Below, in pieces: positions 16,890 through 27,283 of a stretch of 64,000 nucleotides of DNA. The stretch is from the NCBI GenBank assembly GCA_963775855.1, contig CAVZKO010000007.1, forward strand, positions 15,939 to 79,938, read 5' to 3'. How positions within the stretch are numbered: the stretch's first letter is position 1; each line of letters opens with the position of its first letter. A model generated the notes under the pieces. That model did no database searches and had not been told where the DNA came from. It saw only the letters and a program-made list of their open reading frames with translations. The stretch comes from an uncultured Chloroflexia bacterium (GTDB lineage Bacteria; Chloroflexota; Limnocylindria; Limnocylindrales; CSP1-4). Made by a program: the position numbers and the translations under genes.

Positions 16890-17294
16890 CTACGGAAGCG
16901 CCGCGGGATCGGCGACGGAGCTTGTAGCCCGGACGATCAGCGTCCCGGACATCCCATCGTGGATCGTGCAGACGAACGGATACGTGCCAGGGGCGAGCGG
17001 GGAGAACAGGAGCTCATCCGAGGTCCCGGGTTCGACGATCGTTCGCGTAGCGGCAGTCACCCCCGCGGTGAAGACCAGGTTATGCGGCAGGTTCGACGCG
17101 TTTCGGAAGGTGATCGCGATCGGACGGGCGGCGTGGACGACGGTCTCGGCCGGGTCGAAGGCCGTGGCATTACCGGCGGCGGTGGTGATCGTCACATCAA
17201 CGGACCTCGCGGGGCTGGCGGTCACGCCCGGAGCGGTAGCGATGCAGCCGGCGACGAGCGGCGTCAGTAGGCCGCCGACGAGGAGCCACGCCAC
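16890..17294 (-). CDS. Secreted/lipoprotein cupredoxin (plastocyanin/azurin-like)
   Basis: Lipobox LVAGC; type-1 Cu ligands PHN ... CTIH..M. Confidence 0.85.
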   Translation of the reverse strand: MAWLLVGGLLTPLVAGCIATAPGVTASPARSVDVTITTAAGNATAFDPAETVVHAARPIAITFRNASNLPHNLVFTAGVTAATRTIVEPGTSDELLFSPLAPGTYPFVCTIHDGMSGTLIVRATSSVADPAALP

Positions 17295-17302
17295 GTAGCC
17301 GG

Positions 17303-17728
17303 CTAGCGGATGTCCACGCACGCCGTGTATGTCTTCAGATCGTCGTTCGAGTGGTGAATATTGACGGCCAGGCCCCCGGCGAACAGCTCGTCGATGGATG
17401 CCGGAACCACGGTCTTCGAGCTGCCGTTCTGGACGTTCTCCAGCGGGAACTTCGGCTGCGGTGTCAGGCTCGAGCACGACCCGGGATGGATATGGGCCGG
17501 CATGTCCAGGTTGCCGTGTGGATCAACGGCGATCTCGACCGCTGTCTTGTCGCGGAGCGCGGCGAACGTAACGGTTCCCGTAACGCCGGACGCATTCAGC
17601 GTCTGCAACGTGATCGTTCGCGGAGGGTCAGCGGCGGCCTGGCATGCCGTCAGGGCGATCACGGCGCTGGCCAGGAGGAGGAAGAACCCGCGCCGCCGGT
17701 TCGTGGCGCTTCGGATCATGGTGGGCAT
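17303..17728 (-). CDS. CHRD / Cu-Zn-SOD-like domain lipoprotein
   Basis: Signal with LTAC lipobox; SGVTGTVTF, PAHIHPGSC, AVNIH, ACVDI motifs. Confidence 0.75.
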   Translation of the reverse strand: MPTMIRSATNRRRGFFLLLASAVIALTACQAAADPPRTITLQTLNASGVTGTVTFAALRDKTAVEIAVDPHGNLDMPAHIHPGSCSSLTPQPKFPLENVQNGSSKTVVPASIDELFAGGLAVNIHHSNDDLKTYTACVDIR

Positions 17729-17759
17729 GTGTGAACCTCGTTGGTCGTGGGCTGGGTGG

Positions 17760-20288
17760 TCAGTGGATAGCATTTGGTTGGCCGTTCCGGCCGGCCCGCG
17801 GAGGCGCCGGTCGTTTCGGGGCCGATGGTCGAGGCGAGGGGTTCAGCGACGGACCCGTCATCGCGCTGCCGGCAAGCAGCTCGCCCAGGTCGTCGGGAGC
17901 CATCGGGCGGGCGAACAGGTAGCCCTGGCCCTGCTGGGCGCCGAGCTCGCGGAGCACGTCGCGTTGTTCCGATTCTTCGATGCCCTCCGCCACCGTCTCG
18001 AGCCTCAGGGTCGAGCTGAGGTTGAGGATGGAGCGGACGAGCGCCATCGAGTCCGTGCTGCCATCGAGGCTTGAGATGAAGGACCGGTCGATCTTGAGGA
18101 TGTCGATCGGGAACTGGCGCAGATAGCTCAGTGACGAGTAACCGGTGCCGAAGTCGTCGATCGCGAGTCGAACGCCGAGTGCCTTGAGGGCCTGCAGGGT
18201 ACCCACGGTCGCTTCGACGTCCTGGACCAGCACGCTCTCGGTCATCTCAAGGGTCAGGGTGGGCGGGGCGAGCCCGGACTCGGCCAGGATTCGGCCAACG
18301 TCCGCGGCAAGATCCGGGTCTACGATCTGGCGCCCGGACAGGTTGACGCTGATCGACAACGTCTCGCGCCCGGTCGCCTCCTGCCACGCGCGTGCCTGCC
18401 GGCATGCCGACTCGAGGATCCAGCGACCGAGCTCGAGGATGAGCCCGTTCTCCTCGGCCAGCGGGATGAAGTCCGTCGGCGCGACCGCCCCGTGCTTGGG
18501 ATGGTTCCAGCGCATGAGCGCCTCCGCTCCGGTGATCGCAGCGGACGCGAGATCGACGATCGGCTGGTAGGCGACGCGGAGTTCGCCCCGCTCGAGCGCG
18601 CCCTGCAGGTCGGCCTTGAGCTCCATCCGGGCGACGGTCGCGTCGTAGAGCTGCGGCTCATACGTAACGTGGCGATTGCCGCCAGCCGACTTGGCTGCAT
18701 ACATCGCGATGTCGGCGCGGCGCAGCAGCTCGTCGGCATCGGCGCCGTCCGACGACTGAACCGCGATCCCAACGCTCGCCCGGACGACGATCTGCCGGTC
18801 ACCCAGCAAGAACGCGGGGGTCAGGGTGTCGAGGATCCTCGCCGCGGCCTGGTCCGCCTCAGCCGAATCGGTTTCCTCGATGATGATCGCGAATTCGTCA
18901 CCGCCCAGCCGAGCGACCGTGTCCCCGGCTCGGGTGACAGCCTTGAGCCGCCCGCCGACGGCCACGAGCAATCGGTCGCCGGCCGCGTGGCCAAGGCGAT
19001 CGTTGACCGCCTTGAAGTCGTCGAGGTCGAGGAAGATGACCGCCGTAGGTCGGCCTCCGCGGCCTGCCCGAGCCAGCGCGTGACCGAGCCGATCGAGGAA
19101 GAGGAAGCGGTTCTCCAATCCGGTCAACACGTCATGGAAGGCCTGGTGACGGAGCTGTTCTTCGAGGGTTTTGCGCTCGGTGATGTCTCGGTAGTTGACG
19201 ACCACACCGCCAACGGCCGGATCGTCGAGCAGGTTCTTGGCGATCAATTCGAGCGTCCGCCACGAGTCGTCGGCGTGGCGGGCACGGAATTCGACCCTGG
19301 CTTCCGAGCCGCTCACGGCAGCCACGTCGGCCAACCCGCGTTCGACGGTCGAACGATCGTCGGGATGGATATCGGTGCCGATCTGCTGGCCGACCCGTTC
19401 GTCCGCACGGCGGCCCAGGATGCGCTCGACCGCCGGACTCTCGTAGCGGATCAGGCCATCCTCGCCAAGCACGACGACACCGTCGGATGCGTTCTGGACA
19501 AGCGACCGGAAGCGCTCCTCGTTGCGCTGCATGTCGACCAACAGCAGCCGTTCGGTCGCCGCCTGCTCCTGCAGGCGGCGGTTCTGGCCTGCGAGGACGC
19601 GCGAGGCGCCACCGAACGCGAGCCAGATCAGGGCGACCAGCAGGCTTGACGCGACGACCGCGACGATGAACACACCCGATCTCGTGGCGTCGATGCGTTG
19701 CTCGATCAGGCGGGCGTCCTGATAGACGTCGTAGACACCGATCGGATTTCCGTCGACGGCGCCCCGGATCGGGACGAACAGCTCGAGAAAGCGGCCGGAC
19801 ATCGGCGGGAGGCCGTCGACCGGGACGTTGCCGCCGCTCGCATCTCCCCCCGCATACCGAGTGACGCTCTCGCCGCTGTAGGCGCTGGCGAGGAGAGGGC
19901 CGATCGAGAGCCGCCGGCCGCGGAGCTCGGCCAGGCTCGAGTAGGCGATCTGGCCGTCACGTGACCAGATGTTGATCCGGCGGATCTCGCCCGAAAGGAC
20001 CAAACGCTCGAGCTGGGCGTCGATCGCCGGGTCGCGGGCCGCTCCCAGGTCCAGGCTCGTTTCGTGCAGCCCGGGATCGACATAGCCGCGGACGATGGCC
20101 TCGACGCTATGGACTGCCGATTCTGTCGCGCTTCGCCGGAGCTCATCCGCGACGCTGTTCGAGACGACGATGGCCATCCCGACAATCACGGCGACGGCGG
20201 GGGCGACGACGATCGTGCGGAGACCCGGTCGTCGTGGGAAGCCCGCGGCGGATCGAAGAAAGGCCGGGAGAGGGAGGTGAGGTGACAT
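17760..20288 (-). CDS. Membrane sensor PAS-GGDEF-EAL diguanylate cyclase / phosphodiesterase
   Basis: Two TMs flanking an extracellular Cache-like region; PAS (FRSLVQNASD...DITERK); intact GGDEF; EAL and DDFGTGYSSL. Confidence 0.93.
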   Translation of the reverse strand: MSPHLPLPAFLRSAAGFPRRPGLRTIVVAPAVAVIVGMAIVVSNSVADELRRSATESAVHSVEAIVRGYVDPGLHETSLDLGAARDPAIDAQLERLVLSGEIRRINIWSRDGQIAYSSLAELRGRRLSIGPLLASAYSGESVTRYAGGDASGGNVPVDGLPPMSGRFLELFVPIRGAVDGNPIGVYDVYQDARLIEQRIDATRSGVFIVAVVASSLLVALIWLAFGGASRVLAGQNRRLQEQAATERLLLVDMQRNEERFRSLVQNASDGVVVLGEDGLIRYESPAVERILGRRADERVGQQIGTDIHPDDRSTVERGLADVAAVSGSEARVEFRARHADDSWRTLELIAKNLLDDPAVGGVVVNYRDITERKTLEEQLRHQAFHDVLTGLENRFLFLDRLGHALARAGRGGRPTAVIFLDLDDFKAVNDRLGHAAGDRLLVAVGGRLKAVTRAGDTVARLGGDEFAIIIEETDSAEADQAAARILDTLTPAFLLGDRQIVVRASVGIAVQSSDGADADELLRRADIAMYAAKSAGGNRHVTYEPQLYDATVARMELKADLQGALERGELRVAYQPIVDLASAAITGAEALMRWNHPKHGAVAPTDFIPLAEENGLILELGRWILESACRQARAWQEATGRETLSISVNLSGRQIVDPDLAADVGRILAESGLAPPTLTLEMTESVLVQDVEATVGTLQALKALGVRLAIDDFGTGYSSLSYLRQFPIDILKIDRSFISSLDGSTDSMALVRSILNLSSTLRLETVAEGIEESEQRDVLRELGAQQGQGYLFARPMAPDDLGELLAGSAMTGPSLNPSPRPSAPKRPAPPRAGRNGQPNAIH

Positions 20289-20379
20289 ACGGTGACGTGC
20301 ACCGTACAAAGGACCGGCAGGCCGACGCCATGACCGATTCGTACGGGAGAGCCGTCGACCCTCCCGCGTAGGCTCGGGC

Positions 20380-20748
20380 CTAGCCCTCCAGCACCGACAG
20401 GATGTTGCCGGCCGGATCCTTGAACCAGGCGATGGCCGGGCCCTCCCCCCGCATGATCCCGCGCTCATCCTGACCCATTCCGTCGTACCGCTCGAACGCA
20501 ATGCCGGCCTTGGTCAGCCGGTCGACGGCCTGGTCGATGTCGTTGACCGGGAAGTTCAGCACGGTGAACGTGGCGGGCTCGTGGTTGTCCTTCGGGTAGA
20601 TCAGGACGTTGCCGCCGCCGGCGAGGTGGAGCGTCAGCATCCCGTTCTCTTCGGTCACCTCGACGCCGAGCGTCTGACCGAAGAACTCCTTGGACTTGGC
20701 GATGTCGTTCGACGAGAACCCAGAGAACGCGTGGCTGTCCTTGAACAC
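20380..20748 (-). CDS. VOC / glyoxalase-bleomycin resistance family protein
   Basis: [22 protein letters not shown]...LNFPVNDID...[13 protein letters not shown]; GGAGG RBS before GTG. Confidence 0.9.
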
Positions 20749-20837: not shown

Positions 20838-20887
20838 CACCTCCGGGTCGCGAGATGGACCTCGTCAGTCGTGAGACAGTCCCCGTC

Positions 20888-21785
20888 ATGACCGCCCAGC
20901 CACGTCGCGTCGACGTCATCGGCGTCCCGTTCAACTCCTCTGGGACGACTGACGGCGTCGCGCGGGCCCCGGCCGCGCTTCGTCGCGCAGGTCTCGTTGA
21001 GGGACTCCGCGACGCGGGCGTCGACGCCGTCGACTCGGGCGACATCCAGCTCGGGCCGACCAGCCCCCGACGCGATCCCACGACTCACCTGATCGCCCCG
21101 ACGGCGCTCGCGGCGATGATCCGCGCGGTTCGCGCCCGGGTCTCGGCGAGCATTCGAGCCGGCGCATTTCCGCTGGTGATCGGCGGCGACTGTCCCGTGC
21201 TGCTGGGCTGCCTCGGCGGCCGGCAGGCGACGTCGCCATGGGCGTCCTGTTCATCGACGGTCACGAGGACGCATGGCCGCCCGAGCTGTCGACGACGGGC
21301 GAGGCGGCCGACATGGAGCTCGGGTTCGCCCTAGGCGTAACCGTAGCCAGGTCTGCCGGACGACCTGTTGGCGGAGATCCCTCACGTCAGCGCTGACGCC
21401 GTCGTGGTTCTCGGTCCGCGCGACGAGCGCGAACTCGCCGAAGCGGGTGTCCCATCGATCGCTGAAGTCGTCAGGATCGTGCGCCCGGACCAGCTCGCGG
21501 CGTATCCCGAGGACGTCGCGTCGGCCGCTGTCGCATTGCTCGGCCCGGCGAGGCTGGTGGCTTCATGTCGATCTCGATGTGCTCTCCACGGACAGCCTCG
21601 ACGCGGTCGACTACCGCCAGCCGGGCGGCATCGACTGGGATGTACTGACCCGGCTCACGAGAACGGCGCTCGCGGTTCCGGGCGCGACGGGATGGGACGT
21701 CACGATCTTCAACCCGGACCTCGATCCGGACGGAACGCGTGCCCAGAGCATCGTGCGCTACCTGGCGGACGCGCTCCGGCGTTGA
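20888..21785 (+). CDS. Arginase / ureohydrolase family protein; about 3 frameshifts
   Basis: IGVP..G...AP..LR, GGDC, FIDGHED and HVDLDVL metal-binding motifs across frames. Confidence 0.85.
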
Positions 21786-21811
21786 GCGGCTACCCAGCGA
21801 TCGGGCGACGG

Positions 21812-22990
21812 TTACGCCGCCTCCGGGTGGCCGACGGCGAGCATGTAGACCACCGCCTCCTCGACCCCGTCGACACCGATCATCTCGTTCATGGCGTCGT
21901 CCATGAAGGCGCCGATGCCACACGCACCGAGGCCCATCTCCGTCGCCGCAAGGTAGGCGTTCTCGCCGACATGCCCAGCCTCGAGCAGGCCGTAGCGATA
22001 GCTCCGGTCCTGGTATTTCGGGCGCATCCGCTGGAGGATCATCGTGACGAAGAGGACCGCTCCGCACTGGCCGAGGAACTCCTGGCCCAATCCCTGCTCG
22101 ACGACACGATTCCGCATGTCCTCTGCCCGAACGAGCTCGAGGGCGTGTTCGCGGTAGGCGTAGTGGTAGACGCCCGGTTCGATACCGTCGACGTTGTGGA
22201 CGATCGGATAGACCTCGATCGGATAGAGGGCGCCGGAGGACGGCGCCGTCCGGCGGGCGTTGCCGAACGCGTCGGAGCTGACCCCGCTGGTCAGGAACAT
22301 GAAGCGAGACAGTTCGTCGAGGCTCATCGGCTGGGTCGAGTACGACCGTGTCGAACGGCGGGTCGCGATGGCCCAGGCGGCTGGTAAGCCACCTTCGAGA
22401 CCCGGCTCCGGAAGGGCGATGCTGCTGGTGTCGGGGTAAGCCTTGTACAGCTCGACCGGCTGGCCCCAGCTGGCAACGCTGCCGAGGGCGTCGATGACGC
22501 CGGGCTTGCTCCATTGGTGGTAGATCACGCCGACATCGGAGCCGGCCGCGATCGGCGGCGGCTGTCTCAGGCCGCGGCCGAGGAGCCAACCGCCGACGCC
22601 GCCGACGGCAAGCCCGAGGAGGCCGCGTCGCGAGAGGGTCGCGCGCGTCAGCAGCCCGACAGGCGCACCCGGCTCAGGGTCATCGGCGGGGCGTTGGGGC
22701 CCCGGTGCGATGGCAGCAGTCGCTGGCCTCGCGGGGCTCGCCGGCCCGCTCGACGCGAAGCGAGCGGCCACGCCGCGCAGCCTGAACTTCGCGTAGCCGA
22801 CCATTCGGCCCCAGTTGAGCGTCACGTGGAGGATGGCGAACCCGCCCATCACGTAACCCGACACCGTGTGATACCAGAAGTCGTTGAGGTCCCACAGGTC
22901 GGCCACGATCCCGGTGATGCCGGTGGTCAGCCCGGTCAGGATCAGGCCGGCGCTCGAGACGAAGTTGAGGTCGTGCCGTAGTCGCGTCAT
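21812..22990 (-). CDS. SagB/ThcOx-family FMN nitroreductase with N-terminal DUF4405-like membrane domain and internal twin-arginine motif
   Basis: RRSTRSY, RTAPSSGALYPIEVY, KYQDRSYRYGLLEAGHVGENAYL, IGAFMDD; N-terminal 2 TM with H-x13-H; LSRRGLL plus hydrophobic helix. Confidence 0.88.
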   Translation of the reverse strand: MTRLRHDLNFVSSAGLILTGLTTGITGIVADLWDLNDFWYHTVSGYVMGGFAILHVTLNWGRMVGYAKFRLRGVAARFASSGPASPARPATAAIAPGPQRPADDPEPGAPVGLLTRATLSRRGLLGLAVGGVGGWLLGRGLRQPPPIAAGSDVGVIYHQWSKPGVIDALGSVASWGQPVELYKAYPDTSSIALPEPGLEGGLPAAWAIATRRSTRSYSTQPMSLDELSRFMFLTSGVSSDAFGNARRTAPSSGALYPIEVYPIVHNVDGIEPGVYHYAYREHALELVRAEDMRNRVVEQGLGQEFLGQCGAVLFVTMILQRMRPKYQDRSYRYGLLEAGHVGENAYLAATEMGLGACGIGAFMDDAMNEMIGVDGVEEAVVYMLAVGHPEAA

Positions 22991-23131
22991 GGCCGTCCAC
23001 CCGCATCGCGATGCGGAGACGCCGCGACCCTTCACCGCGGGCCGTCGCGCGTCCCGCACTCGAAAGTCTAGACCCGATTCGGCGACGGCTACTACGCGTG
23101 CAGTCAGCCGCCTGCCCGATCGGGGACGTCT

Positions 23132-23437
23132 TCAGCGGGATCGGCGCTGCTCGCGCGACATCTCGTCCCGAATCTTCCGCTCCTGCCACTCCACTCCCAG
23201 GAATCGGCCGGAACCCATCACATACACGCCATGCGCAACGAGGCCGATGCCCCAGCCGAAGACCGTATAGATGAACCAGAGGCGGTCCGGACTCAACGCA
23301 ATGTTGTATGCCGCGAGGCCGATGTTGACCAGGACGAACACGAGCGCGTGGCCGTAGAAGCCGCGCACGAGCTCTACTCGTTGCTTCGCCCGCTCGTAGC
23401 GCTCCTGCTCCGGCGTGATTTCCTTCATCTGGGTCAT
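23132..23437 (-). CDS. 2TM domain protein
   Basis: YERAKQRV...GFYGHALVFVLVN...WF...GWGIGLVAH...WQERKIRDEM matches the 2TM family pattern. Confidence 0.85.
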   Translation of the reverse strand: MTQMKEITPEQERYERAKQRVELVRGFYGHALVFVLVNIGLAAYNIALSPDRLWFIYTVFGWGIGLVAHGVYVMGSGRFLGVEWQERKIRDEMSREQRRSR

Positions 23438-23456
23438 GGCCAAGGTCCTCCGAGGT

Positions 23457-23511
23457 ATGTCAACAGCGTTTACATCGAGAGCATGGCAGACGAAGTGAAC
23501 GATGTCAACAT
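23457..23511. promoter_or_regulatory. Two imperfect palindromic TetR operators between the divergent 2TM and tetR genes
   Basis: ATGTCAACAGCGTTTACAT (23457-23475) and AAGTGAACGATGTCAACAT (23493-23511); TACAAT -10 at 23519. Confidence 0.65.
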
Positions 23512-23531
23512 ACTCGGCTACAATGGCCGCC

Positions 23532-24137
23532 ATGGCTCGTTCGACCTACCACCACGGCGATCTCCGGCGGGCGCTCCTGACCGAAGCCCGCGAGCTCGCC
23601 CGCTCCGAGGGGCCAGACGCCGTCACCCTGCGCGAGGTCGCCCGCCGCCTCGACGTGTCGCCGGCGGCAATCTATCGCCACTTTCCTGACCGTGACGCCC
23701 TTCTCGGCGAAGTTGCCGCGAGTGCCCGCCTGGCCCTCGCCCGGCGCATGCTCGTCGAGGTCGAGCGCGTGGATGAGCGCGACGTGCGTATCCGGGCAAT
23801 CCGACGATTCCAGGCGATCGGGCGAGGCTACATCCGGTTCGCCGAAGAGGAGCCACATCTCCTCGTCACGGCATTCCTGCCGATCCAGCCGCAAGAGGCC
23901 GGTCCCGAGGACCCGAATCCGTGGCACGTGCTTGCCGCGGCGCTGGACGAGCTCGTCGTGACGGGGGCGATGCCGCCCGAGCGACGTGCCGCTGCCGAGA
24001 TCATCGCCTGGTCGGCTGTCCACGGCTTCGCGACGCTTCGAGCGGGTCGCGCCTTCGACGTCTCGAGCGAGCCCGAACCAGACTCGGAGGCGCTCCTGGA
24101 CGCGATCGCCCGATCCCTCGAGGTCCGCGCGATCTGA
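23532..24137 (+). CDS. TetR/AcrR family regulator (WHG C-terminal domain)
   Basis: YHHGDLRRALL, TLREVARRLDVSPAAIYRHF, WSAVHGFA. Confidence 0.92.
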   Translation: MARSTYHHGDLRRALLTEARELARSEGPDAVTLREVARRLDVSPAAIYRHFPDRDALLGEVAASARLALARRMLVEVERVDERDVRIRAIRRFQAIGRGYIRFAEEEPHLLVTAFLPIQPQEAGPEDPNPWHVLAAALDELVVTGAMPPERRAAAEIIAWSAVHGFATLRAGRAFDVSSEPEPDSEALLDAIARSLEVRAI

Positions 24138-24165
24138 TTCGAACGTGGGGAATGTGCCGCCGGAC

Positions 24166-24195
24166 CGATGAGTTTCGCGGCGGCGCCGGGTCTAA
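24166..24195 (+). promoter_or_regulatory. Putative ECF56/SigG-type promoter of the MFS-oxidoreductase operon
   Basis: CGATGAGTTTC-N13-GTCTAA, 37 nt before ATG 24233. Confidence 0.78.
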
Positions 24196-24232
24196 CCAGA
24201 CGACCCCACAAACGACACCAGGAGCGACTGCA

Positions 24233-25873
24233 ATGACCACCAGTGGCACCCCCCGGGCCGGCCGGCGCGAGTGGATCGGGCTTGCTGTCCTATCGCTCGC
24301 GTGCCTGCTCTACGTGATGGACCTGACGGTCCTGCATCTGGCGGTGCCGGCGATCAGCGAGGACCTCAAGCCGAGCAGCGCCCAGCTGCTCTGGATCATC
24401 GACATCTACGGCTTCATGGTCGCGGGATTCCTCATCACGATGGGCACGCTCGGGGACCGCATCGGCCGCCGCAAGCTACTGCTCATCGGGGCAGCCGCGT
24501 TCGGTATCGTCTCGATCCTGGCCGCGTTCTCGACCACCCCGGAGATGCTGATTCTCAGCCGTGCGCTGCTGGGGATCGCCGGGGCGACCCTGGCCCCGTC
24601 GACGTTGTCGCTGATCTTCAGCATGTTCCAGGATCCGCGCCAGCGGGCCGTGGCCATCGGCGTGTGGATCTCCGCGTTCTCCGCCGGTAGTGCCATCGGG
24701 CCGGTGCTCGGGGGGATCCTGCTCGAGAACTTCTGGTGGGGGTCGGTGTTCCTGCTCGCCCTGCCGGTGATGGGCCTGCTCCTCGTCCTCGGCCCGATCG
24801 TCCTCCCTGAATACCGGGATCCCGACGCCGGCCGGCTCGACCTCGCCAGCGCGGCGATGTCCCTCGTGGCCGTGCTGGCGGTGATCTTCGGGCTCAAGCA
24901 GATCGCCCAGGACGGCATCGGTGGGGTGGCCATGGCGTCGATCGTCGCAGGCGTCGTCGTAGCGGGCCTCTTCGTCCGTCGTCAGCTCAGCCTCGCCGAC
25001 CCGATGATCGACCTGCACCTCTTCCGGATCCCGGCGTTCAGCTCGTCGCTGGCGATCAACTTCCTGAGCATCTTCGTGATGGTCGGCTACTTCCTCTTCG
25101 TGGCCCAGTTCCTGCAGCTCGTCGTCGGCCTGTCGCCGCTCGAGGCCGGGCTCTGGTCGCTGCCGTCGGCCATCGCGTTCGTCGTCGCGTCCAATGCTGC
25201 CCCGCGGATCGTCCGCCGCTTCCCGGCGGCCTACGTCATCGGCGCGGGACTCGCCCTGTCCGCTCTCGGGCTCGGCGTGCTGACCCAGGTGGGCGGGCCG
25301 AGCGGCCTGGCGGCCGTGGTCGTCGGTTCGATCATCATTTCGCTCGGCCTCGCGCCGGTCTTCTCGTTGACGACCGACCTGATCGTCGGCTCCGCTCCGC
25401 CCGAGCGAGCCGGCGCTGCGTCGGGAATCTCGGAGACCGCTTCGGAGCTTGGCGGCGCGCTCGGGATCTCCGTGCTCGGCAGCATTGGTGTCGCCCTGTA
25501 CCGCACTCGTCTCGGTGAAGCCCTGCCTGCGGGCGTCCCGGCGGATGCAGTAGTTGTAGCCCGCGACACGCTGGGCGGTGCGGTTGCGGTGGCCGGCCAG
25601 CTGCCCGGCCAGCTCGGCTCGGACGTCCTGGTTGCGGCTCGCGACGCGTTCGTCCAGGGGATGCAGATCGTCACCACGATCAGTGCCATCGTCGCGGTGG
25701 GCGTGGCCATCTTCGCCGTCGTGATGCTGCGAAACGTTGGCTCAGGGGCCGACCGCGAGGCAGCCTCGGAAGCGGAGGCCGATGCGTCGCGAGAGAATAG
25801 CCACGCGCGCGAGCACGAGCATGCACCTCGCGAGGGGCGACCAACGGCAGCCCCGGTGACTGAAGCCTGCTGA
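24233..25873 (+). CDS. MFS efflux transporter (SmvA/QacA-like, 14 TM)
   Basis: MDLTVLHLAVPAISEDL, GTLGDRIGRRKLL, GAASGISETASELGGALG. Confidence 0.92.
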   Translation: MTTSGTPRAGRREWIGLAVLSLACLLYVMDLTVLHLAVPAISEDLKPSSAQLLWIIDIYGFMVAGFLITMGTLGDRIGRRKLLLIGAAAFGIVSILAAFSTTPEMLILSRALLGIAGATLAPSTLSLIFSMFQDPRQRAVAIGVWISAFSAGSAIGPVLGGILLENFWWGSVFLLALPVMGLLLVLGPIVLPEYRDPDAGRLDLASAAMSLVAVLAVIFGLKQIAQDGIGGVAMASIVAGVVVAGLFVRRQLSLADPMIDLHLFRIPAFSSSLAINFLSIFVMVGYFLFVAQFLQLVVGLSPLEAGLWSLPSAIAFVVASNAAPRIVRRFPAAYVIGAGLALSALGLGVLTQVGGPSGLAAVVVGSIIISLGLAPVFSLTTDLIVGSAPPERAGAASGISETASELGGALGISVLGSIGVALYRTRLGEALPAGVPADAVVVARDTLGGAVAVAGQLPGQLGSDVLVAARDAFVQGMQIVTTISAIVAVGVAIFAVVMLRNVGSGADREAASEAEADASRENSHAREHEHAPREGRPTAAPVTEAC

Positions 25874-25909
25874 CCCACAACCCCTTCCACGCAGATGCAG
25901 GAGGCCCTC

Positions 25910-27283
25910 GTGCAAACCTCGACGATTTCGATCCCCGACATCCGCGCCTCGATCAACGGCCAGGTGATCGGACCTGACGATCCCGAGTACGACAAGGCGC
26001 GGACCGTGGTCGCAGGCGGGATCGACCGCCGGCCGGCCGTGATCGTCAAGGTCGCAGACGCCGCCGATGTTGCGACCGTTATTGCGCTCGCGCGCGAGAG
26101 CGGTCTCGAGCTCGCGATCCGCAGCGGCGGCCACAGCGGCGCGGGCCACTGCGTCACCGAGGGCGGGATCGTTCTCGACCTGTCCGACATGAAGGCGCTC
26201 GATATCGACGTCGCCGGGCGGACGGCATGGGCCGAAACCGGCCTGACGGCGGCCGAGTACTCCAAGGCTGCCGCTGCTCATGACCTGGCCACCGGGTTCG
26301 GCGATACGGGTTCCGTCGGAATCGGCGGGATCACGCTTGGCGGCGGTGTCGGCTACCTCGTCCGGAAGTTCGGGCTGACAATCGACGCCCTCATCGCCGC
26401 CGACATCGTCACCGCCGATGGAGAGCTGCTCCGCGTCGACGCGGCGAATCACCCCGACCTCTTCTGGGCGATCCGCGGCGGCGGCGGCAACTTCGGCGTT
26501 GTGACCCGGTTCCAGTACCGGCTCAACGAGGTGCCGGAGTTCGTCGGTGGGATGCTCATCCTGCCGGCGACCGCCGACGTCATCGCAGGGTTCATCGCGG
26601 CGGCCGACGCCGCGCCCGAAGCGCTGTCGACGATTGCCAACGTCATGCCCTGCCCGCCGATGCCCTTCGTTCCCGAGGAGCTGCACGGCAAGCTAGTGAT
26701 CCTCGCGCTGATGGCCTATGCCGGCGACACCGCGGCCGGGGAGCGCGCCCTGGCGCCCTTCAGAGACCTGGCGCCGCCGATTGCCGACATGCTCAAGCCG
26801 ATGCCCTACCCGGAGATCTATCCGCCGGACGACGACTCGTACCATCCATTGGCCATCGCCAGGACGATGTTCGTCGACAGGATCGATCTGCCGGTTGCAG
26901 AAACGATCGTGAAGCATCTCGAGGCGTCCGACGCGGCGATGCGCGTCGCACAGCTTCGGGTGCTGGGCGGGGCGATGGCCCGCGTGCCCGCAGACGCCAC
27001 GGCCTTCGCCCATCGTGACTCGCGAATCATGGTCAATGTCGCCTCGTTCTACGAGGGGCCCGAGGACAAGGACCTGCGGGCGGCCTGGGTCGAAGGGTTC
27101 GCGGCGGCGCTCCAGCAGGATGACCGCGGCGCCTACGTCAACTTCCTCGTCGACGAGGGCGAGGAACGGATCCGCGCCGCGTACCCCGGTTCGACCTGGG
27201 ACCGGCTCGCAGAGGTCAAAGCTCGCTACGACCCGACCAATCTGTTCCGGCTCAACCAGAACATTCCACCGCGGGCCTCGTGA
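25910..27283 (+). CDS. FAD-linked oxidoreductase (VAO / berberine bridge enzyme family)
   Basis: RSGGHS covalent-FAD motif, GGGVGYL, DLFWAIRGGGGNFGVVT, YVNF...KARYDPTNLFRLNQNI. Confidence 0.92.
   Translation: MQTSTISIPDIRASINGQVIGPDDPEYDKARTVVAGGIDRRPAVIVKVADAADVATVIALARESGLELAIRSGGHSGAGHCVTEGGIVLDLSDMKALDIDVAGRTAWAETGLTAAEYSKAAAAHDLATGFGDTGSVGIGGITLGGGVGYLVRKFGLTIDALIAADIVTADGELLRVDAANHPDLFWAIRGGGGNFGVVTRFQYRLNEVPEFVGGMLILPATADVIAGFIAAADAAPEALSTIANVMPCPPMPFVPEELHGKLVILALMAYAGDTAAGERALAPFRDLAPPIADMLKPMPYPEIYPPDDDSYHPLAIARTMFVDRIDLPVAETIVKHLEASDAAMRVAQLRVLGGAMARVPADATAFAHRDSRIMVNVASFYEGPEDKDLRAAWVEGFAAALQQDDRGAYVNFLVDEGEERIRAAYPGSTWDRLAEVKARYDPTNLFRLNQNIPPRAS

What the first reader, a model, noticed from the sequence alone, without database searches (positions are those of the whole stretch)
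21812..22990. Candidate Sec/Tat dual-targeted, heme-wired extracytoplasmic nitroreductase
Seen: TM1, then TM2 with two His 14 residues apart (YHTVSGYVMGGFAILH), a basic Pro/Ala loop, an internal twin-arginine motif LSRRGLL with a hydrophobic helix, then a full SagB/ThcOx FMN domain. No YcaO or precursor peptide is nearby, so RiPP biosynthesis is unlikely. Established: actinobacterial Rieske proteins use two Sec-inserted TMs followed by a Tat-dependent TM; H-x13-H helices ligate b-hemes; nitroreductase folds are homodimers. Inference: a dimer could hold two bis-His hemes and pass electrons from the membrane to an outward-facing flavoenzyme, a possibly undescribed redox system and a new class of dual-targeted protein.
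Basis: partly seen in the sequence, partly recalled or inferred. Interest (0 to 1): 0.75.

Follow-up and report, generated by a model that had tools for sequence, protein, structure and literature searches.

The report
Cytochrome-anchored, Tat-exported SagB flavoenzyme
This gene encodes one protein that appears to join a small heme-binding membrane anchor, an internal export signal for folded proteins and a flavin enzyme facing outside the cell, an arrangement that I did not find described and that could link chemistry outside the cell to the membrane's electron pool.

Summary
ORF 21812-22990(-) encodes 392 aa: TM1, TM2 with H41-x13-H55, a 62-aa basic Pro/Ala loop, S-R-R-G-L-L plus a Gly-rich helix, then a SagB-type FMN domain (TIGR03605, E 3.6e-45).

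Both His occur in 33 of 33 representative clusters with N-terminal homology. RR is present in all 142 aligned full-length relatives.

A profile-profile comparison places residues 5-80 on one half of bona fide DUF4405 proteins, a family shown to bind heme b. Probability is 95.5% and E 1.4e-8, with both His aligned; reversed controls give 0.1%.

Charge distribution puts the long loop inside in 57 of 57. The third helix is weakly hydrophobic and followed by Arg, as in proven dual Sec/Tat proteins. TatA and TatC are in the genome. Relatives carry the same RR helix as an N-terminal signal.

A homodimer model scores 0.90 against 0.00 for controls, with TM1/TM2 in the interface.

There is no YcaO and no conserved neighbour.

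Best reading (0.6): a self-contained, outward-facing flavoenzyme wired through two b hemes to the membrane. Substrate and direction of electron flow are unknown, and all evidence is computational. It is a new variant of a known kind.

The parts
21812..22990 (-). Whole gene, 392 codons plus stop (P0001)
   Evidence: It is colinear over its full length with hundreds of relatives. It is single-copy in the own genome.
22751..22978 (-). Residues 5-80: half-DUF4405 cytochrome-b-like unit (TM1 plus TM2 and the start of the cytoplasmic helix)
   Evidence: hhalign against 18 bona fide Chloroflexota DUF4405 proteins gives Prob 95.5, E 1.4e-8; reversed controls give Prob 0.1. Pfam DUF4405 scores 14.6 bits, E 0.049, below the 26.7 cut-off. 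35 of 57 relatives match DUF4405 at E<=0.1.
22901..22969 (-). TM1 (residues 8-30), predicted to run from inside to outside
   Evidence: Helix 2-33 in the AF2 model, pLDDT 83-90. It is the most hydrophobic of the three helices. It is part of the predicted dimer interface.
22817..22876 (-). TM2 (residues 39-58), carrying H41 (22868-22870) and H55 (22826-22828), H-x13-H
   Evidence: Both His are invariant in 57 of 57 and present in 33 of 33 representative clusters. They align with the His pair of DUF4405. The contact stripe 42-45-49-52-56-59 in the dimer model lies on the same helix face.
22631..22816 (-). Residues 59-120: basic Ala/Pro-rich loop, predicted cytoplasmic and disordered
   Evidence: Composition. 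K+R is 10 against D+E 3, counted from residue 59 through RR122. Family median is 11 against 3, and the loop is net positive in 57 of 57. pLDDT is 50-57. Loop length in the family is 32-74 aa.
22625..22630 (-). Twin arginine R121-R122 within L-S-R-R-G-L-L
   Evidence: 141 of 142 aligned; the one miss is an alignment slip.
22571..22624 (-). Residues 123-140: Gly-rich, weakly hydrophobic third helix ending in GRG, followed by L-R (R139, R142); candidate Tat-dependent signal anchor
   Evidence: 7 Gly in 17 residues. It is less hydrophobic than TM1 in 56 of 57 relatives. At least one K/R lies within 10 aa after it in 53 of 57. Helix 121-140 in the AF2 model.
21821..22552 (-). Residues 147-390: SagB/ThcOx-type FMN domain, including the N-terminal Y157-H158-x-x-S161 segment
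   Evidence: PDB profile search: 3eo7 E 2.3e-82, ThcOx/CyaGox E 2.8e-37, BmdC, McbC. Foldseek top hits are ThcOx and 3eo7. pLDDT is mostly 90-98.
22346..22360 (-). R211-R212-S213-T-R215 motif at the start of the nitroreductase fold
   Evidence: R211, R212, S213 and R215 are invariant in 57 of 57. Its role in binding the FMN phosphate is recalled from the family and was not tested here.
22013..22018 (-). K325-Y326, the position of the SagB-type catalytic Lys-Tyr pair
   Evidence: Y326 is 57 of 57. Position 325 is K in 45 and R in 12 of 57. It aligns with W-K-Y of ThcOx/CyaGox. The role of McbC Lys201/Tyr202 is described in PMC6395948.

Best explanation
The gene encodes a self-contained, membrane-wired redox enzyme that faces outside the cell.

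Assembly (inferred):
1. TM1 and TM2 are inserted first, N-terminus inside.
2. The long basic loop stays in the cytoplasm.
3. The SagB-type domain folds, takes up FMN and dimerises in the cytoplasm.
4. The Tat system recognises the internal S-R-R-G-L-L signal and carries the folded domain across. The Gly-rich third helix remains as an uncleaved anchor. This makes it a dual Sec/Tat, 'class IV' Tat substrate.

Cofactors (inferred):
- Two chains pair, and the two TM2 helices each supply H41 and H55.
- Together they would ligate two b hemes, one near each face of the membrane. This rebuilds the four-His core that bona fide DUF4405 proteins carry within one chain.
- Electrons would then pass between the quinone pool or cytoplasmic side and the two FMN sites sitting directly on the bundle.

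Direction: I favour, at about 55:45, the oxidative direction. A substrate is dehydrogenated outside by the Lys-Tyr/FMN site and its electrons enter the membrane. The alternative is outward delivery of electrons to a reductase.

Shown here by computation: domain identities, conservation, homology to DUF4405, charge topology, presence of Tat genes, and a dimer model that passes its controls. Inferred: heme and FMN binding, Tat dependence, electron transfer, direction and substrate.
For: 1. SagB domain. TIGR03605 E 3.6e-45 and PF00881 E 1.4e-33. Closest solved chains are 3eo7, ThcOx, BmdC and McbC. R211/R212/S213/R215 and Y326 are each invariant in 57 of 57, and position 325 is K in 45 and R in 12.

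2. Heme module.
- H41 and H55 are present in 33 of 33 representative clusters.
- hhalign against 18 bona fide DUF4405 proteins gives Prob 95.5, E 1.4e-8, with both His and the T-G aligned. Reversed controls give Prob 0.1, E about 0.6.
- All 18 of those DUF4405 proteins carry at least two H-x13-H units.
- Among 57 relatives, Pfam hits at E<=0.1 are DUF4405 in 35, Ni_hydr_CYTB in 14 and Ferric_reduct in 4.
- DUF4405 and the homodimeric FezC were purified and showed heme b spectra (PMC11334425).

3. Topology. Loop 1 has median K+R 0 and D+E 3. Loop 2 has median K+R 11 and D+E 3. Loop 2 is the more basic in 57 of 57.

4. Tat features, as defined in PMC5449189.
- RR lies directly before the last helix.
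- That helix is weakly hydrophobic in 56 of 57, and K/R follows it in 53 of 57.
- The loop is at least 32 aa, against a required minimum of about 8.
- The cargo is a cofactor domain.
- TatC (191.7 bits) and two TatA genes are in the own genome.

5. Relatives carry the same RR helix at the N-terminus.
- P0148 starts MLSRRKFL.
- The ~520-aa tandem-SagB proteins start M..DRRGFL.
- By a crude rule, 31 of 150 representatives do so.
- In L083 an in-frame stop lies 35 codons upstream, so that start is real.

6. Dimer. Score 0.90, best of 3 controls 0.00. The runs agree in at least 77% of contacts and partner pLDDT is at least 73. The mark was reached by 20 of 30 proteins solved as pairs of one chain and by 1 of 23 solved as single chains. 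The interface includes TM1 (6-31), TM2 (36-70) and the nitroreductase dimer.

7. One relative, P0124, has two H-x13-H units and two SagB domains in a single chain. That is a covalent version of the proposed dimer.

8. No conserved neighbour in 24 loci, which fits a self-sufficient fusion.
Against: - The Pfam DUF4405 match of the protein itself is below the cut-off: 14.6 against 26.7 bits.
- No curated Tat-signal model matches P0001 at E<=1.
- Of 10 relatives with N-terminal RR signals, 0 match Pfam TAT_signal at E<=0.1. One, P0148, matches TIGR01409 at 15.9 bits, just under its 16.7 cut-off.
- The larger relatives (600-700 aa, four helices, two SagB domains) mostly lack RR before the last helix. 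27 of 60 H-x13-H representatives fail my crude rule, though the rule has some misses. P0124 also lacks RR. Tat is therefore not universal in the wider group.
- Many closest single-domain relatives have no signal at all and are presumably cytoplasmic.
- In the dimer job the hemes and FMN were not scored and I have no coordinates. His-Fe and heme-FMN distances are therefore unknown.
- The nitroreductase part of the dimer may pass because similar dimers are already solved.
- The hydrophobicity figures use a simple sum with scale values recalled from memory.
- The gene is patchy: full-length matches in 5 of 61 genomes of the class, and none in the same-genus genome.
- No substrate can be named.
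Confidence: 0.6

Rival explanations
1. The flavin domain is exported and anchored as described, but the N-terminal helices are only an anchor or dimerisation device. The two His serve another role (structure, another metal, a proton path), and FMN is recycled by oxygen or a soluble partner rather than through hemes.
For: The protein's own DUF4405 score is below the Pfam cut-off. Heme placement was not scored in the model. Known SagB-type oxidases use O2 (recalled). Some relatives are exported with only a signal peptide and no cytochrome module, so the enzyme can work without it.
Against: Two His exactly 14 apart on one helix are invariant in 33 of 33 clusters. They align with the His pair of a family shown to bind heme b. 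The weak Pfam hits of the relatives all fall in b-type cytochrome families. A mere anchor would not need them.
Confidence: 0.15
2. The SagB domain faces the cytoplasm. The RR helix is either not membrane-spanning or spans in the other direction, and the protein is a membrane-tethered cytoplasmic flavoenzyme.
For: Curated Tat-signal models do not ring. The third helix is only weakly hydrophobic and has moderate model confidence, pLDDT 71-77. Most nitroreductase-family enzymes and many close single-domain relatives are cytoplasmic.
Against: The loop before the helix is strongly basic and loop 1 is acidic in the whole family. An inside-to-outside third helix therefore follows from the positive-inside rule. 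The RR plus Gly-rich helix is invariant although the linker is not. The same element sits at the extreme N-terminus of relatives, where it can only be a signal peptide. Weak hydrophobicity with trailing Arg is the hallmark of Tat-dependent last helices (PMC5449189).
Confidence: 0.15
3. It is a membrane-bound azoline dehydrogenase of a RiPP pathway whose YcaO cyclodehydratase and precursor are encoded elsewhere.
For: The best curated match is the SagB peptide dehydrogenase domain, and databases name the relatives that way. The Lys-Tyr pair is kept.
Against: No YcaO in the window's scanned ORFs. None found in the own genome, which is 69.3% complete. No conserved neighbour of any kind in 24 loci from several phyla. 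TIGR04511 (peptide maturation dehydrogenase) scores 99.9 bits against its 240 cut-off. An outward-facing domain could not act on a cytoplasmic precursor bound to a YcaO complex.
Confidence: 0.03

Closest known systems
Sco3746-type heme-molybdenum cofactor proteins of Streptomyces coelicolor and relatives (dual Sec/Tat; PMC5449189)
   Same: [quoted passage not shown] A conserved RR lies directly before the last helix, which is weakly hydrophobic and followed by positive charges. The loop before it is variable, and a folded cofactor domain is exported at the C-terminus.
   Different: Sco3746 has five helices in one chain and a Mo cofactor cargo. Here there are three helices per chain, the heme sites need a homodimer, and the cargo is an FMN enzyme of the nitroreductase fold. 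Tat dependence was shown by experiment for Sco3746 and not for this protein.
Actinobacterial three-helix Rieske proteins (Sco2149, QcrA)
   Same: The same 2 + 1 helix plan: two Sec-inserted helices, a cytoplasmic loop, an internal RR signal anchor, and an exported cofactor domain.
   Different: The Rieske cargo is a 2Fe-2S domain. Its first two helices carry no heme ligands, and it works inside the bc1 complex rather than alone.
DUF4405 (PF14358) cytochromes and the ferrosome protein FezC (PMC11334425)
   Same: An H-x13-H helix preceded by a helix ending in T-G, with profile-profile homology and both His aligned. FezC is proposed to build the heme sites by homodimerisation, as proposed here.
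   Different: Described DUF4405 proteins are stand-alone membrane proteins, often next to apbE and flavinylated partners. The 18 Chloroflexota DUF4405 proteins I extracted are about 170 aa and carry two or more H-x13-H units. The paper's main text does not mention nitroreductase, SagB or twin-arginine (0 occurrences each). This protein falls below the Pfam cut-off.
SagB/ThcOx/McbC/BmdC FMN-dependent azoline oxidases, and the tandem-domain protein 3eo7 of unknown function
   Same: The same fold and curated domain, with the Lys-Tyr pair and Arg-rich FMN motifs kept.
   Different: As far as I recall, those enzymes are cytoplasmic. They work with YcaO or NRPS partners and pass electrons to O2. This protein has no such partner, is predicted to face outward, and is fused to a cytochrome-like anchor.
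MsrPQ (periplasmic MsrP fed by the heme b membrane protein MsrQ)
   Same: The logic is the same: a b-type membrane cytochrome exchanging electrons with a Tat-exported redox enzyme that has no access to NAD(P)H. This is recalled; MsrQ is treated as structurally related to DUF4405 in PMC11334425.
   Different: MsrPQ is two polypeptides with a Mo cofactor enzyme and a known substrate (methionine sulfoxide). Here there is one polypeptide with FMN and an unknown substrate.

Membership tests
SagB/ThcOx-type FMN dehydrogenase domain (TIGR03605; nitroreductase superfamily PF00881) | Match to the curated domain models above their cut-offs | tested here: met
   TIGR03605 scores 153.6 bits against 78.4. 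PF00881 scores 116.9 bits against 23.5.
SagB/ThcOx-type FMN dehydrogenase domain (TIGR03605; nitroreductase superfamily PF00881) | Catalytic Lys-Tyr pair over the flavin | tested here: met
   K325-Y326. Y is 57 of 57; position 325 is K in 45 and R in 12. It aligns with WKY of ThcOx. The role is taken from PMC6395948. I did not see a residue-level alignment to McbC itself.
SagB/ThcOx-type FMN dehydrogenase domain (TIGR03605; nitroreductase superfamily PF00881) | Homodimer with FMN at the interface | tested here: met
   This is a prediction only. Score 0.90 against a best control of 0.00; 20 of 30 solved pairs and 1 of 23 single chains reach the mark. It may pass from likeness to solved dimers. 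FMN was not scored.
RiPP azoline-forming system (YcaO cyclodehydratase + SagB dehydrogenase + precursor) | A YcaO or cyclodehydratase partner in the locus or genome | tested here: not met
   None in the 10 ORFs scanned. None found in the own genome at 69.3% completeness. No conserved neighbour in 24 loci. TIGR04511 scores 99.9 bits against 240.
DUF4405 (PF14358) heme b cytochromes | Match to the Pfam model above its gathering score | tested here: not met
   14.6 bits against 26.7, E 0.049. The own-genome scan gives 14.5 bits at this gene. 35 of 57 relatives match at E<=0.1, best 4.4e-4.
DUF4405 (PF14358) heme b cytochromes | Homology of the two-helix unit, with the conserved His pair aligned | tested here: met
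   hhalign gives Prob 95.5, E 1.4e-8 over residues 5-80, with H41 and H55 on the family's His. Reversed controls give Prob 0.1.
DUF4405 (PF14358) heme b cytochromes | Four central His (two H-x13-H helices) forming two heme sites | tested here: inconclusive
   There is only one H-x13-H helix per chain. The dimer model brings TM1/TM2 of both chains together, but heme positions were not reported.
DUF4405 (PF14358) heme b cytochromes | Binds heme b | not testable with these tools
   It needs spectra of purified protein, as was done for DUF4405 and FezC (PMC11334425).
Dual Sec/Tat ('class IV') Tat substrates (PMC5449189; PMC13673990) | Conserved twin arginine directly before the last transmembrane helix | tested here: met
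   141 of 142 aligned, plus one alignment slip.
Dual Sec/Tat ('class IV') Tat substrates (PMC5449189; PMC13673990) | Low hydrophobicity of that helix and positive charges after it | tested here: met
   It is less hydrophobic than TM1 in 56 of 57, with a median of 6 Gly in 17. At least one K/R lies within 10 aa in 53 of 57, and R139 and R142 in this protein. The method is rough: scale values were recalled and the dGpred server was not used.
Dual Sec/Tat ('class IV') Tat substrates (PMC5449189; PMC13673990) | Cytoplasmic loop of at least about 8 aa before RR, and a cofactor-binding C-terminal domain | tested here: met
   The loop is 32-74 aa in the family and net positive in 57 of 57. The cargo is an FMN domain.
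Dual Sec/Tat ('class IV') Tat substrates (PMC5449189; PMC13673990) | Tat machinery in the organism | tested here: met
   TatC scores 191.7 bits. TatA scores 66.4 and 33.7 bits.
Dual Sec/Tat ('class IV') Tat substrates (PMC5449189; PMC13673990) | Recognition by curated Tat-signal models | tested here: not met
   P0001 has no TAT_signal or TIGR01409 hit at E<=1. Among relatives with N-terminal RR signals, Pfam hits 0 of 10 and TIGR01409 hits 1 of 10, just under its cut-off. These models are short and built for N-terminal signals.
Dual Sec/Tat ('class IV') Tat substrates (PMC5449189; PMC13673990) | Export of the C-terminal domain depends on Tat and on RR | not testable with these tools
   It needs reporter fusions in tat+ and tat- cells and an RR-to-KK variant.

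The most novel reading that the evidence does not exclude
This would be the first flavoenzyme family among dual Sec/Tat membrane proteins and the first respiratory-type module of the nitroreductase superfamily. A single polypeptide dimerises to build its own di-heme wire. It couples dehydrogenation of an as yet unknown extracellular substrate (by analogy, a C-C bond next to a heteroatom in a peptide-like or heterocyclic compound) directly to the quinone pool, without NAD(P)H, O2 or any partner protein. The group is modular. The same exported SagB unit occurs with a plain Tat signal, with half a DUF4405, with a four-helix anchor, and as a covalent double unit.
Probability: 0.3. Interest if true: 0.8.

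Novelty: new variant of a known kind. Interest (0 to 1): 0.62.

Why it matters
- SagB-annotated genes without YcaO partners are very common in genomes and metagenomes: 15007 representative clusters match this protein at E<=0.001. They are routinely labelled 'peptide dehydrogenase' and counted as RiPP genes.
- Part of this group may instead be exported and wired to the membrane. That would change how such genes are annotated.
- It would add a flavin cargo to the short list of dual Sec/Tat proteins.
- It would give the recently recognised DUF4405 cytochromes a defined fused enzymatic partner.
- It also offers a compact test object of 392 aa, with no partner needed, for electron transfer from heme b to flavin across a membrane.

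Tried and rejected
- Curated Tat-signal models. There is no hit in P0001. Pfam hits 0 of 10 relatives, and NCBIfam hits 1 of 10 just below its cut-off. I kept the Tat reading on the other evidence, but this check did not help it.
- Conserved neighbours. All-against-all comparison of ORFs within 6 kb in 24 loci found nothing shared across lineages. A short-chain dehydrogenase occurs in 4 loci, and a membrane spermidine-synthase-like protein in 3 Anaerolineae loci. Neither is in the window.
- Search with the N-terminal 80 residues alone. It gave 347 hits. Of the 120 listed, 118 carry PF00881; the other two (P0271, 308 aa; P0272, 235 aa) are shorter and have no Pfam domain on record. No other architecture was found. 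This search is word-based and limited to 215-686 aa, so it does not show that none exists.
- Earlier findings of the scan, by place, sequence and words: nothing to show.
- Expression. One metatranscriptome library (X1) holds three short contigs (151-202 nt) with 2 to 8 differing letters each over 147-197 aligned bases, covering parts of the gene. Contigs of an RNA library cannot show transcription, and the share of words was 0.13. I draw no conclusion.
- Promoter and terminator scan of 21600-23600. It found no promoter-like site, and one terminator-like site on the other strand, no more than in shuffles.
- Protein atlas. The nearest clusters are the same SagB family. Clusters where 20-23% of members carry TAT_signal score only 0.81-0.82, which is a lead only.
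- Heme and FMN rode along in the dimer job but are not scored and no coordinates are returned.
- The longer GTG start at 23059 is rejected, because relatives begin at the ATG.
- Literature. No paper holds both 'SagB' and 'twin-arginine', or all of 'nitroreductase superfamily', 'SagB' and 'transmembrane'. The 10 papers that mention DUF4405 (8 listed, titles and starts of abstracts seen) do not concern this fusion. PMC5449189, PMC13673990 and PMC11334425 have 0 occurrences of nitroreductase in their main texts.
- Supplements are closed. The full TATFind/TMHMM candidate list of PMC5449189 could contain this family and I could not check it.
Full report
THE GENE
ORF 21812-22990 on the minus strand translates to a 392-aa protein, P0001. 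A longer GTG start at 23059 is open. I reject it because 123 of 142 aligned relatives begin with Met at the ATG position. All coordinates of the parts were checked by translation. The window has 64-75% G+C. Named relatives come from Chloroflexota MAGs labelled Limnocylindria/Limnocylindrales.

- TM1 is residues 8-30.
- TM2 is residues 39-58, with H41 and H55 fourteen apart.
- The loop 59-120 has 13 Ala, 9 Pro and 7 Arg in 62 residues.
- L-S-R-R-G-L-L follows, with RR at 121-122.
- The third helix is Gly-rich: GLLGLAVGGVGGWLLGRG.
- The C-terminal domain is SagB-type: Pfam Nitroreductase at 208-388, E 1.4e-33, and TIGR03605 at 224-387, E 3.6e-45, well above its cut-off.
- A profile of 57 relatives finds these solved structures: 3eo7 (tandem SagB-like, function unknown, E 2.3e-82), ThcOx/CyaGox (E 2.8e-37), BmdC and McbC.
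- An AlphaFold2 model (mean pLDDT 83.6) finds the same structures by Foldseek.
- R211, R212, S213, R215 and Y326 are each invariant in 57 of 57, and position 325 is K in 45 and R in 12.
- K325-Y326 aligns with W-K-Y of ThcOx. It corresponds to the Lys-Tyr pair described as catalytic in McbC (PMC6395948, passages read).

CONSERVATION
- The word-indexed search gave 927 hits. The 120 listed are all full-length at 67-100% identity.
- The exhaustive search gave 15007 representative clusters at E<=0.001.
- Among the 150 best representatives, 33 have a match that reaches the N-terminus. All 33 carry H-x13-H.
- I aligned 142 full-length proteins. These had been selected for length and for H-x13-H, so the His count in that set is circular.
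- In that set RR aligns in 141. The remaining protein has DRRVLL, shifted by the aligner.
- In the curated alignment A1 (57 sequences, 32-93% identical to P0001), H41 and H55 are invariant and RR nearly so. The linker between them cannot be aligned.

THE N-TERMINAL MODULE IS HALF OF A DUF4405 CYTOCHROME
- P0001 alone matches Pfam DUF4405 only weakly: 14.6 bits, E 0.049, cut-off 26.7.
- Of 57 relatives scanned singly at E<=0.1, 35 match DUF4405, 14 match Ni_hydr_CYTB and 4 match Ferric_reduct. All three are b-type cytochrome families.
- For a proper test I took bona fide DUF4405 matches from Chloroflexota genomes. 91 of 151 genomes have one above the cut-off.
- I extracted 18 proteins of about 170 aa. 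Each has at least two H-x13-H units.
- I compared their alignment with residues 1-80 of A1 by hhalign. Probability is 95.5% and E 1.4e-8 over residues 5-80. The T-G before the loop and both His are aligned. Reversing either alignment gives probability 0.1% and E about 0.6.
- DUF4405 from an Oscillospiraceae bacterium and the ferrosome protein FezC were purified and showed heme b spectra. FezC is proposed to form DUF4405-like heme sites by homodimerisation (PMC11334425, passages read).
- P0001 carries one unit per chain, so two chains would be needed for the four-His, two-heme core.

DIMER
- I folded two copies, using alignment A1, with two hemes and two FMN riding along.
- The score was 0.90 and the best of 3 controls 0.00. 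The three runs agree in at least 77% of contacts, and partner pLDDT is at least 73.
- In the tool's calibration, 20 of 30 proteins solved as pairs of one chain reached the mark, and 1 of 23 solved as single chains did. These counts hold only roughly here, because I supplied my own alignment and small molecules were present.
- The interface holds the expected nitroreductase dimer. That part may pass from likeness to solved dimers.
- It also holds TM1 (6-31) and a stripe on TM2 (42, 45, 49, 52, 56, 59, 63, 66-67, 70). By helical periodicity this stripe lies on the same face as H41 and H55.
- Residues 142-163, directly after the third helix, are also in the interface. The flavin domain would therefore sit right on the bundle.
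- Ligands are not scored and no coordinates are given, so the His-heme geometry remains untested.
- One relative, P0124 (714 aa), has two H-x13-H units and two SagB domains in a single chain. This is the covalent equivalent of the dimer.

TOPOLOGY AND EXPORT
- In A1 the loop between TM1 and TM2 has median K+R 0 and D+E 3.
- The loop after TM2 has median K+R 11 and D+E 3. It is the more basic of the two in 57 of 57.
- By the positive-inside rule the N-terminus and the long loop are cytoplasmic. The third helix then runs outward and the SagB domain is outside.
- Tooke et al. defined the features of dual Sec/Tat proteins by experiment on Rieske Sco2149, the heme-MoCo protein Sco3746 and a polyferredoxin (PMC5449189, passages read). 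The features are a conserved RR directly before the last helix, low hydrophobicity of that helix, positive charges after it, a loop of at least about 8 residues, and a cofactor-binding C-terminal domain.
- All of these are present here. The third helix is less hydrophobic than TM1 in 56 of 57, with a median of 6 Gly in 17. At least one K/R lies within 10 residues in 53 of 57. That calculation is a rough sum, and the scale values were recalled from memory. The loop is 32-74 aa.
- The genome encodes TatC and two TatA genes.
- Relatives show what the RR helix is. Single-domain proteins such as P0148 start MLSRRKFL, followed by a hydrophobic stretch. Tandem-SagB proteins of about 520 aa start M..DRRGFL.
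- A crude rule finds an N-terminal RR helix in 31 of 150 representatives, and an internal one behind H-x13-H in 33. Some cases are visibly missed by the rule.
- In locus L083 an in-frame stop 35 codons upstream proves that the RR signal is the true N-terminus.

RESULTS THAT GO THE OTHER WAY
- No curated Tat-signal model matches P0001.
- Of 10 relatives with N-terminal RR signals, Pfam TAT_signal matches none at E<=0.1. TIGR01409 matches one, at 15.9 bits against a 16.7 cut-off.
- The 600-700-aa relatives with four helices and two SagB domains mostly lack RR before their last, more hydrophobic helix. P0124 lacks it too. Tat is therefore not general in the wider group.
- Many close single-domain relatives (37-45% identical) begin right at the SagB domain with no signal. 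One has a Sec-like signal.
- The gene is accessory. Full-length matches occur in 5 of 61 genomes of the class, counting the own genome, and none in the same-genus genome at 92% completeness.

CONTEXT
- Around the gene lie a 2TM-domain protein upstream on the same strand, a divergent TetR-MFS pair, a convergent arginase-family gene, a glyoxalase, a PAS-GGDEF-EAL protein and a BBE-type FAD oxidase.
- No YcaO is in the window's scanned ORFs or in the own genome, which is 69.3% complete.
- I compared 24 loci with the full-length or near-full-length form, from Chloroflexota, Actinomycetota, Cyanobacteria, Brocadiaceae and Gemmatimonadota. No neighbour is conserved.
- The protein therefore seems to work without a dedicated partner.

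MECHANISM
- Outside the cytoplasm there is no NAD(P)H, so an exported flavoenzyme needs another way to recycle its flavin. A di-heme wire in the same polypeptide provides it. This is the logic of MsrPQ and of Sco3746.
- I put the overall reading at 0.6.
- Direction is open. The kept Lys-Tyr pair and the oxidase chemistry of all characterised SagB-type enzymes favour substrate dehydrogenation outside, with electrons flowing into the membrane. That direction is also downhill from reduced flavin to b hemes to quinone (recalled potentials).
- The DUF4405 and MsrQ precedents favour outward delivery to a reductase. I lean 55:45 to the first.
- No substrate can be named.

COMPARISON WITH WHAT IS KNOWN
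- The protein belongs to the SagB-type domain family. It does not meet the definition of a RiPP azoline system.
- It is related to DUF4405 by profile comparison but is below the Pfam cut-off.
- It meets all the sequence criteria of dual Sec/Tat ('class IV', PMC13673990) substrates. It lacks the experimental one.
- I found no description of this fusion. No paper holds both SagB and twin-arginine, or the three terms.
- The main texts of PMC5449189, PMC13673990 and PMC11334425 do not mention nitroreductase.
- I rate it a new variant of a known kind, of moderate to high interest. All evidence is computational.

Noticed in passing
window 20855-21785 (+): The arginase-family gene convergent with the target is spread over at least three frame changes. 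Recognisable pieces lie in frames 0, 2, 0 and 1, and Pfam Arginase matches only profile positions 3-103 and 186-270 in two separate ORFs. It is either a pseudogene or a run of indel errors in the assembly.
   Followed up: partly
proteins P0141, P0142, P0149, P0186 and others: A sister architecture of 600-700 aa has an extra N-terminal helix, the same H-x13-H helix (motif FDLHYLFGY...H), a more hydrophobic last helix that mostly lacks RR, and two SagB domains. How its flavin domains would be exported or loaded is unclear.
   Followed up: partly
protein P0124 (714 aa): A single chain has two H-x13-H two-helix units, a fifth helix without RR, and two SagB domains. It is a covalent pseudo-dimer of the target's plan.
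   Followed up: partly
loci L029-L081 and L044: Many ~235-aa SagB-like proteins of archaea and bacteria, 37-45% identical in the domain, start directly at the G-D-x-[FY]-[HQ]-x-x-T-K motif with no signal. In L044 the domain is preceded by a Sec-like signal without RR.
   Followed up: no
loci L088-L104, L106: Small (~170 aa) bona fide DUF4405 proteins with two or more H-x13-H units are common in Chloroflexota. 91 of 151 genomes searched have a match over the cut-off; that tally includes the unpublished genomes G038 and G145. The own genome (69.3% complete) has only sub-threshold matches.
   Followed up: partly
window 23132-23533 (-) and 23502-25873 (+): A 2TM-domain protein (PF13239, E 6e-23) lies 142 nt upstream on the same strand. 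A TetR regulator plus MFS transporter pair lies divergently from it. Neither is conserved next to the gene outside close relatives.
   Followed up: partly
window 16890-20501 (-) and 25895-27283 (+): A cupredoxin-domain protein, a PAS-GGDEF-EAL signalling protein and a BBE-type FAD oxidase lie nearby. No link to the target was found.
   Followed up: no
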